Below, one piece after another: positions 793 to 64,000 of a stretch of 64,000 bases of DNA. Origin of the DNA: Eledone cirrhosa (Eukaryota); contig OZ024745.1 in NCBI GenBank assembly GCA_964016885.1, positions 85,312,001 through 85,376,000 of the forward strand, given 5' to 3'. Numbering within the stretch: the first letter of the stretch is position 1; each line of letters opens with the position of its first letter. The position numbers and the translations under genes were made by a program. The notes beneath the pieces were generated by a model. It was not told the DNA's origin. It was given only the letters and a program-made list of their open reading frames with translations, and searched no databases.

Positions 793-816
793 ATATTTAT
801 TAAAATAACAGATTAA

Positions 817-867
817 AGTTTAAGCAAAGAATCGCTGCTTTCACCCTTAACGGGATCTTCTGAAACT
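817..867 (-). ncRNA. Type I hammerhead-like motif, variant core CAGAAGA
   Basis: AGTTT-CAGAAGA-tCCC gttaa GGGt-GAA-AGCAG..TTGCT-T-AAACT; all three stems can pair. Confidence 0.55.
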
Positions 868-1017
868 AACAAAGTCAATCTGTAAACGCAGAACTGGATA
901 TTTCAAAAAACGTTGCGTTCTTTGTAGAAATATTCAGATGTTGTTTCTGCATGATGAATACAAAGAACGCAACGTTTTTTGAAATATCCAGTTCTGCGTT
1001 TACAGTTTGACTTGGTT

Positions 1018-1068
1018 AGTTTCAGAAGATTCCGTTAAGGGTGAAAGCAGCGATTCTTTGCTTAAACT
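1018..1068 (+). ncRNA. Type I hammerhead-like motif, variant core CAGAAGA
   Basis: Inverted copy of 817-867; stem II is tcc/ggg with a G.U pair. Confidence 0.55.
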
Positions 1069-1523
1069 TTAATCTGTTATTTTAATAAATATTTGCTCTT
1101 CGGTTCTTATTTTATCTGATATATATTTTCCTTATCGAACCCTCTCTGGATTTTAGTCTTCAATTTTATTATTATTACTATATATATATTATATATATAT
1201 ATATATATGTATATATATATATATATATATATATATATATATATATATATATATATATATATATATATATATATATATAAATATATATATATATATATAT
1301 ATAATTAAGTTAAAAATGTACATCCACATATGTATACTGAAATACTGGTATGCATATGAATACACACACGTATACATATGTAGATGTACCGAGTTTTTCA
1401 CTGGTCACTTTACTGTGAGTGTCCAGCTATTCTGTATGTAAACACACAGACAAACCGGTTTTTAGAGTCATACTGTTTTTTTAGGAAACACCTTTCCTCT
1501 ATTCTCCAGAAAGCCAGACAAGG

Positions 1524-1568
1524 AATATTGAACTAGTTTCGATGTTGTTACATCTCATCAGCAATATT
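1524..1568 (-). ncRNA. Minimal type I hammerhead ribozyme (family A)
   Basis: AATATTG-CTGATGA-GATGT aaca ACATC-GAA-ACTAGT-T-CAATATT. Confidence 0.9.
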
Positions 1569-59040: not shown

Positions 59041-59089
59041 GATTCTACAGGACTAGAACTGTTTCATTCATTAGAAATCATCAGGAATC
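59041..59089 (-). ncRNA. Type I hammerhead ribozyme (left member of a palindromic pair)
   Basis: GATTC-CTGATGA-tTTC taat GAAt-GAA-ACAG ttctagtc CTGT-A-GAATC. Confidence 0.8.
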
Positions 59090-59091
59090 AG

Positions 59092-59140
59092 GATTCCTGA
59101 TGATTTCTAATGAATGAAACAGTTCTAGTCCTGTAGAATC
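59092..59140 (+). ncRNA. Type I hammerhead ribozyme (right member of a palindromic pair)
   Basis: Exact reverse complement of 59041-59089. Confidence 0.8.
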
Positions 59141-59953
59141 TCATCTATATATAATATATATATATATATATATATATAATATATATTTATTATTACTATA
59201 TATATATTAATTATTACTATATATATATTTACTATATAATATATTATTACTATATAATATATATATATATATATATAATATATATATATATATATATATA
59301 ATATATATTTATATATATATAATATAAATATATATATATAATATATAATATATATATATATAATATATATAATATACATATATATATATAATATATATAT
59401 ATATAATATATAATATATATATATATAATATATAAATATTATATCTATATAATATATATATATAATATATATATATATATAATATATATATATATATAAT
59501 ATATATAATATATAATATATATATATAATATATATATATATAATATATATATATATATAATATATATATATAATATATATATATATATAATATATATATA
59601 ATATATATATATATAATATATATATATATAATATATATATATATAATATATATATAATATATATATAATATATATATATAATATATATATATAATATATA
59701 TATATAATATATATATAATATATATATATATAATATATATATATAATACATATATATATGTATATGTATACATATATATATATATTCATATATATATATA
59801 TGTATGTATATGTATACTTATATATATATTTGTATATGTATATATATATATATATATATATATATATGTATATATATATATATATATATATATATATATA
59901 TAAATAATATATATATATATATATATATATATATATATATATATATATATATA

Positions 59954-62665
59954 CGGGGTAACAAATAATAGTTAAATGCAGTCCACTTAGGTAAAGTCCA
60001 GTTATGGTATTCCAGGTAGTGGATGATATTAACGCTTGGCTTGGTTTGACTCAACAAGGCGTTTCCATAGTGATGCTGCGGGTATGCCGTAATTCCTATG
60101 TTGTAAACACTTGGAGTAATAATAAATCAGGAAAGAAGGTTGACATGGTTTGCTATACAAAAAAGGTTTTTAATCTCATAGCTGACAATTGTTTCTCTGA
60201 ACTGGTAGGTCTAGAGATCGCTATTCGCTTATTTTCACGTTACTCGATCGCCAATACAAAATTATAACCAGTCAGATCTTCGGAGCATGCGAGAATGAAG
60301 AAAATACACAGGCAAGAAAAGAATATACAGGCTACTATATGAAGTAGTAATGGCATTCAATTAGAACAATAACAACAATTACAACAATGCTATTAATAAA
60401 TTATTTGAGGAGACCCTGACATTACTTAGGTGTGTGGGGGTGGGGGGTATAATATATCTAACGTTACGGCGTGTAAAACTAGCTGTGATGAGGCAAAAGT
60501 AAGAATTTGGCATGTACAGAGTATCGAAGTGTGTATCAATTTTAAATTATAAAGATAAGCCAGTGTTTACAGTCTTTCTTTTCATATTCAATAGTATACA
60601 TGAGTGGGACAACACTGTCAAAGCTAAATAGTTGTTGAGTTAATACAGAGGTTAACGAAGTAATATACGCATATATTTACACGCACACACACATACACAC
60701 ACACACACATAAACACACACACACACACACACACACACACACACACACACACACATATATATATATATATATACACATGCATGTGTACATAGACACATAC
60801 ATACACATCAATATACACTCGTACAAAAATATACATACATGCAAAAAGATAAGCGTGCTAATTGTAATTATGGCAAAAGGAAGGTAAAGTTACATTGTAG
60901 TAGAGATTTGAGAAAAACTAGGATTTAGGATCAAATGATGGCAGCAGCTGAGAAGGAATAAGTTTGTGGGTAGATGAGGTACTTACAGACATTTGTGTGG
61001 TATAGACTTGTGAAGGATATAGTATACTTAATGACTATATTTCTGTGGGTAGTAGGTATCCTAATTTAAAGCTATGTTGTGTTGGTTCGATTCACGGAGG
61101 TTTGAATCTTATGAATTTAGTGGCAATTCTATGTCTGCAGAAGATAGATCTTTCTAACTTATTGTTAAGTAGCCTTTTTACATTTTTGAGGATATACAAT
61201 AGCTCAAGATTACATAGCCCGCAGTGGGACATCCCTGTACTATAGGTTTTAGCAGCCGACAACTTCGATCAGTTGATACTGTAGTTAGTGCTGCTGTCCT
61301 TCAGTTCCCATATTTTTTTGGCGAGGGTTGTGGCACCCATAAGTGCACGGTTTTTCATTGAGTGTCTGTGCACATACCATCTTTTTTTAAAAGAACCCGC
61401 GGTGGATCCTATGTAATTCCAGGCGGAGTTACCCGAGATGACCGTGCACATGTACACTAGGCTCGAATCGAGACATCTGTTCGCCAATCGGCACCTATCT
61501 GGTAGGTAACAGTTACAGTTTGAGGCGCTATTTTGTGCAGCTTTTACATTCCTGTTTAGTACTCTGTTATAAGTGGGTTGTGATATATGCCCAATGGGGT
61601 TTTGCTGCTGCGCGTTTGTATGCGCTTGTGGTTGTGATGTTGTGATGTGTTTGTGCTTATAATTAGGTGCTACGTTATGTATAGGTGCAGTTGATTTACT
61701 AAAGATATTTCTGTGGTTGATCTTGCGTATGTGTGATTCTATGTTTGCTGCTGTTGAGTATGAGAGTTTTATAGTAGATCTATTGAGTATTTTGTGATAT
61801 CTATGCGAGATAGGGAAGTGTTTATCTATTAGTTTGTAGAGGGCAGTCTAGTTTTTATAGAGGAGTTGAATATTGGGTTGAACCATAGGTATTTTCTTTG
61901 TCTGTTTCTTCTATTGTTTCTTGGGTTTACGTTATTAGTGTTTTGGCCGTTTACTCCAGGTGTTACGTGTTTAACCCTATGTCTAGTCAAGTTATTTCTA
62001 TTATTATGTGAGCGGTTGGAGTAGTAATTACTAGGATTGTTTAAGTTGTCCTTATTCACTATATACTGCAGTTTATCTTTATGACCGGCCCTACGTAATG
62101 CTGCATTATAATAGTCAGCATGCTCGTTAAAGATTTCTAGGTTTGAGGATAAGCGGGATATTCGGAGGGATATACTACGTGCTATGGATCTAATTATGGA
62201 TTTGGGGTGATTTGAGTTGTAACTAATGTAGGCAAGATTTTCATTATTTTTGTGGAAAGGTTCTATTAATCCAGTATTTAGATTTAGAGTCACATCTAGA
62301 AAATTAACCTTCTTATGGTTTAGTTCGTAGGTAATACTTAGGCCTAGTTTTTTGAAGAATATTCTAATATTTTTTCTTAGTCTTTCCATGCTCTGGTTGT
62401 TTAGGTTCCTAGCTATAAGTAACGTGTCGTCCCTATAAATTCCTCCTTGGAGGTTACTGAATTCCTTATGTAGGTTGTGTGCTATGAATAGCCCCGCGAT
62501 ATCTGTGATTTGCGCAGAATCATTTGATCCCATTGTTATATCGAAGCTATTTATTCTATCCTTTCTTACCCAGTAGCTATTTTCAAATTTTATGATAGTC
62601 CTTCTAGCCGCTATTATTATTTCAATTTCATCAGATAGTCCTTCTAGCCGCTATTATTATTTCAT
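59954..62665 (-). mobile_element. Hydra-clade-like PLE (H5), 5'-truncated, frameshifted
   Basis: MGSNDSAQITD, GIYRDD, NFLDV, WFNP; CNCYLPDRCRLANRC; LVY..YIGSTAGSFKKRWYVH. Confidence 0.85.
60177..60289 (-). ncRNA. Non-canonical type I hammerhead (CCGAAGA core, 81-nt stem II domain)
   Basis: catGCT-CCGAAGA-TCTGA CTGGT...ACCAG t TCAGA-GAA-ACAATTGT-C-AGCtatg. Confidence 0.72.
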
Positions 62666-64000
62666 TGCGAGAATGAAGAAAATACACAGGCAAGAGAAGA
62701 ATATACAGGCTACTATATGAAGTAGTAATGGCATTCAATTAGAACAATAACAACAATTACAACAATGCTATTAATAAATTATTCGAGGAGACCCTGACAT
62801 TACTTAGGTGGGGGGTATAATGTCTCTAACGTTACGGCGTGTAAAACTAGCTGTGATGAGGCAAAAGTAAGAGTTTGGCATGTACAGAGTATCGAAGCGT
62901 GTATCAATTTTAAATTATAAAGATAAGCCAGTGTTTACAGTCTTTCTTTTCATCAAGTCTTTCTTTTCATCAAGATAGATCTTTCTAACTTATTGTTAAG
63001 TAGCCTTTTTACATTTTTGAGGATATACAATAGCTCAAGATCACATAGCCCGCAGTGGGACATCCCTGTACTATGGGTTTTAGCAGCCGACAACTTCGAC
63101 CAGTTGATACTGTAGTTAGTGCTGCTGTCCTTCAGTTCCCATATTTTTTTGGCGAGGGTTGTGGAACCCATAAGTGCACGGTTTTTCATAAGTTAGAAAG
63201 ATCTATCTTCTGCAGACATAGAATTGCCACTAAATTCATAAGATTCAAACCTCCGTGAATCGAACCAACACAACATAGCTTTAAATTAGGATACCTACTA
63301 CCCACAGAAATATAGTCATTAAGTATACTATATCCTTCACAAGTCTATACCACACAAATGTCTGTAAGTACATCATCTACCCACAAACTTATTCCTTCTC
63401 AGCTGCTGCCATCATTTGATCCTAAATCCTTGTTTTTCTCAAATCACAACTACAATGTAACTTTACCTTCCTTTTGACATAATTACAATTAGCACGCTTA
63501 TCTTTTTGCATGTATGTATATTTTTGTACGAGTGTATATTGATGTGTATGTATGTGTCTATGTACACATGCATGTGTATATATATATATATGTGTGTGTG
63601 TGTGTGTGTGTGTGTGTGTGTGTGTGTGTGTGTGTGTGTGTGTGTGTATGTGTGTGTGCGTGTAAATATATGCGTATATTACTTCGTTAACCTCTGTATT
63701 AACTCAACAACTATTTAGCTTTGACAGTGTTGTCCCACTCATGTATACTATTGAATATGAAAAGAAAGACTGTAAACACTGGCTTATCTTTATAATTTAA
63801 AATTGATACACACTTCGATACTCTGTACATGCCAAACTCTTACTTTTGCCTCATCACAGCTAGTTTTACACGCCGTAACGTTAGATACATTATACCCCCC
63901 CCCCACACACACACACCTAAGTAATGTCAGGGTCTCCTCAAATAATTTATTAATAGCATTGTTGTAATTGTTGTTATTGTTCTAATTGAATGCCATTACT
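62666..64000. mobile_element. Rearranged duplicate of the H5 3' region: direct pieces (62666-62953, ~62972-63188), then an inverted arm running off the window
   Basis: Matches 60288-60585 and 61141-61358 directly; 63189-64000 is the reverse complement of ~60345-61159. Confidence 0.85.

What the first reader, a model, noticed from the sequence alone, without database searches (positions are those of the whole stretch)
793..64000. High hammerhead density and diversity: ~24 motifs in ~12 families within 64 kb
Seen: HHR motifs at 817, 1018, five in array A, four in family B, 10910, 17248, 20294, 20823, 21550, 28229, 33141, 40055, 44344, 47457, 59041, 59092 and 60177. All are type I and all lie in PLE 3' regions or small non-coding inserts in (TA)n. 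Position 4 is U, C or A; stem II closes with G-C, U-A, G.U or U.U, or follows an extra nucleotide. Inference: a community of autonomous PLEs and ribozyme-bearing parasites sharing a (TA)n target, and a natural library of HHR core variants.
Basis: partly seen in the sequence, partly recalled or inferred. Interest (0 to 1): 0.75.

Follow-up and report, generated by a model that had tools for sequence, protein, structure and literature searches.

The report
Hammerhead-ribozyme-laden genome, edited-circle fossil
The 24 hammerhead-shaped (predicted self-cutting) RNA motifs are real, but they are ends of known kinds of jumping genes in a genome that likely holds a few hundred thousand such motifs; the notable detail is one repeat whose six units all share five private A-to-G changes, likely a record of one edited RNA circle copied round and round into DNA.

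Summary
All 24 motifs are at the stated places: 23 keep a hammerhead core and one (44351) is decayed. A strict descriptor finds 17 against at most 1 in 60 shuffles. They form 12 families. Seven are 3' ends of Hydra-clade and two of Neptune-type Penelope-like elements (PLEs); two (A, B) are non-coding retrozymes; one is unplaced. The window is not an outlier: about 266 motifs/Mb against about 105/Mb in 59 other regions (roughly 300,000 genome-wide). PLE hammerheads, retrozymes, the (TA)n target, and the U.U, extra-nucleotide and C4 variants are all published. Two things were not found in my searches. One is an A4 core fixed in a PLE family with 19,043 matches. The other is array A: all six units, in both orientations, carry five A>G changes found nowhere else among 7,399 copies, at sites that are A>G hotspots genome-wide. 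That is best read as an ADAR-edited circular RNA reverse-transcribed repeatedly. The scan noted both before on other DNA of this genome. Cleavage and expression are untested.

The parts
809..1178 (.). Family D: inverted pair of 3' ends of a Hydra-clade PLE; hammerheads with A4 core, U.U closing pair and hairpin stem III at 814-870 (-) and 1015-1071 (+)
1303..3801 (.). Family A retrozyme insertion: 466-bp units, 1.9 units on - then 3.4 units on +; hammerheads at 1523-1569 (-), 1989-2035 (-), 2530-2576, 2995-3041, 3461-3507 (+)
2358..2390 (+). Hairpin of family A with five A>G changes (2361, 2365, 2370, 2375, 2379); the same five in the copies starting at 2824, 3289, 3755 (+) and 2207, 1741 (-)
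8139..8995 (.). Family B retrozyme (about 420-430-bp unit, partial tandem plus inverted part); hammerhead 8400-8446 (-)
10693..17548 (.). Family C: head-to-head Neptune-type PLE (RT plus GIY-YIG; ORFs 11500-14022 - and 14788-16974 +); hammerheads with 2-bp stem I at 10904-10953 (-) and 17242-17291 (+)
20088..21114 (.). Family C truncated inverted pair; hammerheads 20288-20337 (-) and 20817-20866 (+)
21400..24918 (-). Family E: second Neptune-type PLE (RT 66% identical to C, frame broken); hammerhead 21545-21595 with 3-bp stem I
28224..29989 (-). Family F: Hydra-type PLE 3' part (endonuclease frame 28873-29475); hammerhead 28224-28353 with C4 core and 95-nt stem II
31262..33241 (.). Family I: inverted non-coding PLE-type 3' region; hammerhead 33139-33200 (+). 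Link to a Hydra ORF only through relative L033
39912..42370 (-). Family G: Hydra-type PLE 3' part (endonuclease frame 41330-42370); hammerhead 40052-40112
42510..44432 (.). Family H: Hydra-type PLE, inverted RT/endonuclease part (-) joined to a sense 3' part (+); decayed hammerhead 44343-44404 (+)
45491..45809 (-). Family B copy; hammerhead 45705-45751
46137..46380 (.). Family D endonuclease C-terminal fragment (+) preceded by an inverted family D tail; no hammerhead
47187..47731 (-). Family L: non-coding insert, hammerhead 47452-47534; no ORF found in related loci, unplaced
54911..55278 (-). Family B copy; hammerhead 55121-55167
56710..57082 (-). Family B copy; hammerhead 56906-56952
58957..59145 (.). 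Family J: minimal inverted pair of 3' ends of a Hydra-clade PLE; hammerheads 59038-59092 (-) and 59089-59143 (+), U.U closing pair, hairpin stem III
59954..64000 (.). Family K: Hydra-type PLE (RT 61829-62650, endonuclease 61269-61847, -) with an inverted part; hammerhead 60176-60291 (-) with C4 core and 81-nt stem II

Best explanation
The window is a pile of independent insertions into (TA)n tracts: nine hammerhead families are 3' ends of protein-coding Penelope-like retrotransposons, and two (A, B) are non-coding tandem retrozymes that are likely copied by the same enzymes, array A likely from one edited circular RNA. Shown: motifs, families, ORFs, copy counts, inverted architecture and the shared A>G cluster. 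Inferred steps: (1) the element's GIY-YIG endonuclease nicks (TA)n and its RT starts copying at one of two fixed points behind the hammerhead, giving the short and tailed ends; (2) copying usually stops early, so the part most often left is the hammerhead-bearing end, often as an inverted pair, which multiplies motif counts; (3) tandem retrozyme transcripts fold as dimers through the palindromic stem III, cut into units and are ligated into circles; (4) ADAR edits the long hairpins of such a circle, and a PLE RT going round it writes the same edits into every unit of both arms; (5) in the PLEs themselves cleavage is likely slow or dispensable, which would let A4, C4 and a 2-bp stem I spread.
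For: Hydra signature (CxCx5C, GIY-YIG, CxxC..E..N..CxH) upstream of D, J and an I relative and in F, G, H, K, as defined in PMC8557442 section 11. Two 3'-end classes per family, measured from the cleavage site: D 25/115, J 21/89, I about 50/140, A 231/299 nt, as for the PLE 'tail' in PMC11167929. A arrays run outward from an inversion point. Stem III insert fully palindromic in 84 of 114 hits. Motif count follows TA content over 79 regions (rho 0.55). The five-G hairpin occurs only in the window's 6 units among 7,399 matches. Genome-wide, A>G at those five sites adds 530 matches (106 per site), at the other seven A's 116 (17 per site), T>C at eleven T's 124 (11 per site). Other differences inside the array are 14 singletons and one site shared by two units, with no ladder. 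Clusters of three or more A>G occur 3 times in 55 retrozyme insertions, never as T>C, and 0 times in 80 PLE insertions.
Against: No RNA or cleavage data. Over whole units family A shows no strand bias (rare A>G 5.1 vs T>C 5.2 per 1000; T>C 53 vs A>G 34 over 31 insertions). Hairpin counts are units, not events, and large arrays inflate them (one array carries 2361G in 42 units read). A>G keeps a stem paired (G.U) while U>C breaks it, so selection on source copies could add to the bias. One of the three A>G clusters lies in a diverged subfamily copy and may be inherited. No sequence link between A or B and a particular PLE was established. Eight of nine Xenopus retrozymes did not cleave in vitro, so motif presence does not imply activity.
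Confidence: 0.7

Rival explanations
1. Same element inventory, but array A grew at the DNA level: a monomer or partial tandem (edited or hit by a clustered mutation) inserted and then expanded by unequal crossing-over, as proposed for retrozyme satellites in the 2026 preprint.
For: Long arrays of 30 or more units exist; the preprint argues for local amplification; the five changes follow A or T, which error-prone DNA polymerases also favour (recalled).
Against: Both oppositely oriented arms carry all five changes and end at PLE-type points 231 and 299 nt behind the cleavage site; differences among units are singletons rather than a ladder; the same five sites are A>G hotspots elsewhere with no T>C mirror.
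Confidence: 0.2
2. One linear edited RNA unit was re-read several times by template jumping of the RT; no circle is needed.
For: It predicts the same shared edits; PLE insertions are built from several restarts (inverted arms).
Against: Unit junctions are seamless at a constant 466-bp period over 5.3 units, which a circle gives without further assumptions; circles are documented for coral, mussel and axolotl retrozymes.
Confidence: 0.15
3. The window is a special hammerhead-rich locus (a cooperating community or host-used ribozyme cluster).
For: 266 per Mb against 105 per Mb in the genome sample; 12 families in 64 kb.
Against: Resampling P about 0.07; flanking and nearby regions give about 250 per Mb; density follows TA content; at least 9 of the 12 families recur in other regions.
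Confidence: 0.07
4. The motifs are chance matches in AT-rich repeats.
For: The core is short; my relaxed descriptors also return a few doubtful hits in (TA)n.
Against: 17 against at most 1 in shuffles; 62 against 0-2 out of sample; compensatory changes in 7 of 8 stem II pairs with a fixed core.
Confidence: 0.01

Closest known systems
Hydra-clade Penelope-like elements (Craig et al. 2021, PMC8557442; section 11, passages, and supplement File S1 rows seen)
   Same: C-terminal GIY-YIG with CxCx5C linker, canonical hammerheads, insertion into (TA)n, inverted truncated copies with a tail; File S1 lists Hydra-1_Obim from an octopus with (TA)n preference.
   Different: The paper reports a small number of families outside cnidarians; here seven lie in 64 kb and two have 19,043 and 4,499 exact motif matches. 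A4 and C4 cores and 81-95-nt stems II are not mentioned in the parts read; supplement File S2 (structures) was not examined.
PLE minimal and palindromic-stem-III hammerheads (Cervera and de la Pena 2014, PMC4209133; parts 1-3 of 4 read)
   Same: Type I, short palindromic stem III predicted to work as a dimer, extra nucleotide before stem II, 2-bp stem I (D. virilis), many families per genome, mostly single motifs from truncated PLEs, opposite-strand pairs 100-700 bp apart.
   Different: Counts there are 2,000-9,000 per genome with a tighter descriptor; this genome is estimated at about 300,000 with a descriptor that allows stem II up to 110 nt, so the comparison is not like for like.
Metazoan non-LTR retrozymes (PMC7229834, passages read; Li, Clavereau and Pollet 2026 preprint, parts 1-3 of 5 read)
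   Same: Tandem non-coding units with one type I hammerhead each, low GC, strongly self-paired, coexisting with PLEs; coral has over 6,000 motifs in 16 families, axolotl up to 120,000.
   Different: PLE-driven copying of a circle is proposed there, not shown. Editing is mentioned only as a possible source of RNA heterogeneity. The two-armed PLE-type architecture and unit-wide shared A>G cluster are not described in the parts read.
Natural hammerhead core variants (Perreault et al. 2011, PMC3088659; section 8 and passages read)
   Same: U10.1.U11.1 closure, weak stems II and III, and U4C are documented natural variants.
   Different: U4A is not named in the text read (figure not seen); one search for it gave no relevant paper. 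Lunse et al. 2016 on PLE hammerhead variants could not be read and may cover some of these.
Poseidon PLE of Anolis (Frangieh et al. 2024, PMC11167929; parts 1-2 of 4 read)
   Same: Two RT start sites behind the hammerhead explain short and tailed ends; AT-rich target.
   Different: There the hammerhead overlaps the ORF start and the tail is 30-40 nt; here tails are about 68-90 nt. Cleavage there needed protein and was dispensable for insertion in vitro; untested here.

Membership tests
Type I hammerhead ribozyme | Core boxes C3-U4-G5-A6-N7-G8-A9, G12-A13-A14-A15.1 and U16.1-H17 | tested here: met
   19 of 24 canonical, 2 with A4, 2 with C4, 1 decayed
Type I hammerhead ribozyme | Three stems with stem I open-ended; covariation | tested here: met
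   7 of 8 stem II pairs compensatory in 16 family-I-like motifs (sequences are related, not independent); family C has only 2 bp of stem I
Type I hammerhead ribozyme | Self-cleavage after H17 | not testable with these tools
   no assay; no raw RNA reads available
Hydra-clade PLE (D, F, G, H, J, K, I relative) | C-terminal GIY-YIG with CxCx5C linker, CCHH absent, CxxC and CxH around E and N | tested here: met
   translations; Pfam GIY-YIG weak hits for G and H; F, H and K frames are cut before the C-terminal motifs in the window
Hydra-clade PLE (D, F, G, H, J, K, I relative) | RT motifs RWK and DKT; placement in the RT tree | not tested
Hydra-clade PLE (D, F, G, H, J, K, I relative) | Hammerhead near the 3' end and insertion into (TA)n | tested here: met
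Neptune/Nematis-type PLE (C, E) | RT then GIY-YIG with CX2-5CxxC linker and CCHH | tested here: met
Neptune/Nematis-type PLE (C, E) | Clade placement by RT phylogeny | not tested
   no tree built; Neptune versus Nematis not resolved
Non-LTR retrozyme (A, B) | Tandem non-coding units of a few hundred bases, one type I hammerhead per unit, GC under 50% | tested here: met
   466-bp period, no frame of 100 aa listed in 1303-3801, GC 0.36; B tandems of 422-432 bp
Non-LTR retrozyme (A, B) | Strongly self-paired monomer | tested here: met
   A: z = -8.9 against 100 shuffles; B not folded
Non-LTR retrozyme (A, B) | Expressed as linear and circular RNA | not testable with these tools
   only contigs of runs of unrecorded kind were available

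The most novel reading that the evidence does not exclude
This genome carries the densest hammerhead load among those in the papers read (about one per 10 kb) from a mass expansion of Hydra-clade PLEs and their retrozyme parasites. Array A is a direct fossil of the retrozyme life cycle: one ADAR-edited circular RNA copied five to six times by a PLE reverse transcriptase into both arms of one insertion. The most numerous PLE family measured has fixed a U4A catalytic-core change, a natural test of whether PLEs need their ribozyme to cut.
Probability: 0.55. Interest if true: 0.7.

Novelty: new variant of a known kind. Interest (0 to 1): 0.5.

Why it matters
The finding as posed is a known situation at unusual scale. 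What could matter to specialists is that two open points become testable from sequence. First, retrozymes are proposed to spread by reverse transcription of circular RNA by PLE enzymes; edits shared by every unit of both arms of one insertion are the footprint that model predicts and that DNA-level satellite growth does not readily give. Second, the function of PLE hammerheads is unclear; families that reached thousands of copies with A4, C4 or a 2-bp stem I, beside families that keep a covarying fold, can be assayed side by side. Rfam's cut-off misses all 24 motifs, so such genomes are under-annotated.

Tried and rejected
Rfam: no hammerhead at gathering score; microRNA-family hits are (TA/TG)n artefacts. 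No RNA holder listed for the family A unit; runs X1, X4, X5, X6 are contigs of unrecorded kind, so their depth says nothing on expression, ends or circles, and the single 'goes back 466' joint fits a tandem as well as a circle. A general A>G strand bias over whole elements was looked for and not found in A, C, D or J; B shows 13.9 vs 8.0 per 1000 on small counts. Relaxed descriptors (one core mismatch, U3-A8, stem I of 2 bp) found no convincing extra motif in the 580-bp array, the 250-bp repeats or the 35205-35667 palindromes; hits at 522, 46506, 62634, 63212 and 46414 were rejected as chance. A protein search with the family G endonuclease returned three unnamed relatives at 30-32% identity and did not help placement. 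Lunse et al. 2016 is not held. Searches for ADAR editing with retrozymes, U4A, octopus hammerheads and genomic evidence for rolling-circle copying gave no paper describing these features; only listings were seen for those hits. Same-strand ORFs upstream of 6 of 44 family B motifs were at scattered distances and of different families, so were taken as neighbours. The four U4 copies among the first 100 family D matches are not a subfamily: two were read and are inversion junctions that create the U.
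Full report
Setting. The window is G000:C5:85,312,001-85,376,000 of an unnamed 3.0-Gb genome with four chromosomes of 379-443 Mb and many smaller ones. About 27% of it is (TA)n satellite, broken by islands that are mostly retroelement pieces. Earlier scan notes call the host octopus-type; I did not test that.

Observation. A type I descriptor (core with U, C or A at position 4, stem II loop of 6-110 nt, GAAA, UH, scored stems) finds 17, against mean 0.1 and maximum 1 in 60 local dinucleotide shuffles. 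Because I set its thresholds after seeing the motifs, the out-of-sample test matters more: 62 hits in 59 other 10-kb regions against 0-2 in 10 shuffles. The four family C motifs (2-bp stem I) and 21587 (3-bp stem I) appear with a shorter stem I; 1023 is the inverted sibling of 862; 44351 has lost C3 and A9 while three relatives keep them. Rfam reports only the five array-A motifs, below its cut-off, among the 150 of 208 rows shown. In 16 motifs related to 33147 the core is fixed, 7 of 8 stem II pairs change on both sides, and the stem III palindrome changes as a palindrome.

Is the density special? The window has 266 strict hits per Mb. The 59 regions, picked by me at round coordinates on 26 contigs (one further request did not exist), give 105 per Mb (bootstrap 61-166), or roughly 300,000 motifs genome-wide; resampling gives 17 or more per 64 kb in 7% of draws. 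Twenty regions within 5 Mb on the same chromosome give 50 hits in 200 kb without the score cut. Counts follow TA content (rho 0.55 over 79 regions). The 79 regions hold 30 single-linkage clusters, some single and doubtful. So the window is an enriched but ordinary sample of a hammerhead-laden genome. Published totals are 2,000-9,000 for schistosome, coelacanth and Xenopus, over 6,000 in 16 families for a coral, about 5,000 for a mussel and up to 120,000 for axolotl, with tighter descriptors.

What the families are. C and E have RT followed by a GIY-YIG with CX4CxxC linker and CCHH: Neptune/Nematis type; C has 5,576 motif matches. F, G, H and K lie 3' of endonucleases with the CxCx5C linker that defines the Hydra clade, published as hammerhead-bearing and (TA)n-targeting, with an octopus member in the supplement. 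The short inserts are mostly the same thing: 4 of 24 family D motifs scored have a Hydra endonuclease 965-971 nt upstream, 2 of 43 family J motifs at 1,612-1,614 nt, and one relative of family I at 1,570 nt. D has 19,043 and J 4,499 pattern matches. Most copies are short 3' ends, often as inverted pairs. A and B have no coding link and occur in tandem: retrozymes. L is unplaced. Each well-sampled family has two 3' ends behind the cleavage site (D 25/115, J 21/89, I about 50/140, A 231/299 nt), the pattern that Frangieh et al. traced to two RT start sites. That A shares it, and that A arrays run outward from an inversion point, suggests that a PLE enzyme moves it (inference).

The variants. U10.1.U11.1, weak stems and U4C are known natural variants; the extra nucleotide and a 2-bp stem I are known in PLEs. 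A4 is in 96 of the first 100 listed family D matches, and two of the four U4 cases that I read are made by inversion junctions; no other letter reached 5% at that place in four public runs that cover it (their independence is unknown). I found no paper on U4A, but Lunse et al. 2016 and figure or File S2 content were not seen. In vitro, hammerhead cleavage was dispensable for insertion of an Anolis PLE, so a weak core in a successful family is plausible.

Array A. Laying public contigs on one unit showed that the window has G where they have A at 2361, 2365, 2370, 2375 and 2379, in the 5' arm of a hairpin. Of 31 insertions compared, only the window has this cluster. In the genome the five-G form exists in exactly the window's six copies, four on + and two on -, among 7,399 matches. 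The majority form has 6,869 matches; allowing G at those five sites adds 530, at the other seven A's 116, and allowing C at all eleven T's adds 124. The five sites were chosen from the window alone, so their being hotspots elsewhere is not circular, but these are units, not events, and big arrays inflate them. All five follow T or A, which fits ADAR's neighbour preference (recalled). Independent origin of five such changes has an expectation near 10^-6 over the copies examined. Other differences among the six units are 14 singletons and one A>G shared by the two units next to the inversion. Clusters of three or more like changes: 3 A>G and no T>C in 55 retrozyme insertions, no A>G in 80 PLE insertions, one C>T in D. 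Against: whole-unit spectra show no A>G bias in A, selection for G.U over A.C could contribute, and no RNA data exist. The simplest reading is one edited RNA molecule read five to six times in one insertion event, most simply as a circle (about 0.6 for this step); template jumping on a linear unit and DNA-level growth remain open. The retrozyme papers propose circle copying by PLEs but do not show it in the parts read; searches found no report of edits fixed in retrozyme arrays.

Earlier notes. I reached the element inventory, the A4 result and the edited-circle reading before consulting the scan's notes. They show that the scan found the edited-circle pattern, the U4A and C4 cores and the long stem II before, on other DNA of this genome. 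They are unchecked AI notes and add no independent support; one gave the lead to the Hydra-1_Obim row, which I checked.

Verdict. The components are members of known kinds at unusual scale. The fixed U4A core and the unit-wide edit cluster lift this to a new variant of a known kind, with interest 0.5.

Noticed in passing
G000 C1-C4 versus other chromosomes (L025-L083): Hammerhead hits are commoner on the four large chromosomes: 20 of 32 regions with a hit (166 per Mb) against 7 of 27 (Fisher p = 0.008), although the window's part of C5 is rich.
   Followed up: partly
L076 (G000:C3:190,000,001-190,010,000): A second tandem retrozyme family with a 310-bp unit, 11 motifs in 10 kb, stem III palindrome different from family A.
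   Followed up: no
window 47946-50255: Tandem array of a 580-bp unit with no hammerhead found by relaxed descriptors; weak matches (78%) in L016 and L018.
   Followed up: partly
window 25640-25889, 26190-26439, 26694-26943: Three copies of a 250-bp element separated by (TA)n spacers at about 500-bp period; related copies in 32 fetched loci; SINE-like, no hammerhead.
   Followed up: partly
window 35205-35667 and 50192-50253: Short inverted-repeat family (copies in 36 fetched loci) with PLE-like two-armed layout but no hammerhead found; may be ends of another PLE.
   Followed up: partly
window 36093-39794 and 50595-54308: Two 3.7-kb copies (95% identical) of a LINE with AP endonuclease and RT, also flanked by (TA)n, so the tracts collect hammerhead-free elements too.
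   Followed up: no
window 10980-10996 (-), 21625 region (-), 46420 region (-): Families C and E share an A-run followed by ATGGCGTAG some 50-60 nt upstream of the hammerhead, resembling a YY1 site (recalled motif); candidate internal promoter element.
   Followed up: no
window 2594 and the matching site in the minus arm: An A>G change is present only in the two units next to the inversion point, one in each arm; could be a late edit or a fold-back copy.
   Followed up: partly
L012, L013, L018, L028: One hammerhead family has both U4 and C4 members (3 and 2 of 5), so position 4 can switch within a family.
   Followed up: no
G000:C1:83,679,780-83,691,705 and C1:14,381,868-14,394,337: Tandem runs of family J motifs at about 1.08-kb period and of family C motifs at 4.15-kb period (likely full-length tandem PLEs).
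   Followed up: no
window 9049-9231, 28115-28222, 33330-33419, 46874-46975, 54655-54781: Five fragments of one very common short repeat family sitting in (TA)n; not classified.
   Followed up: no
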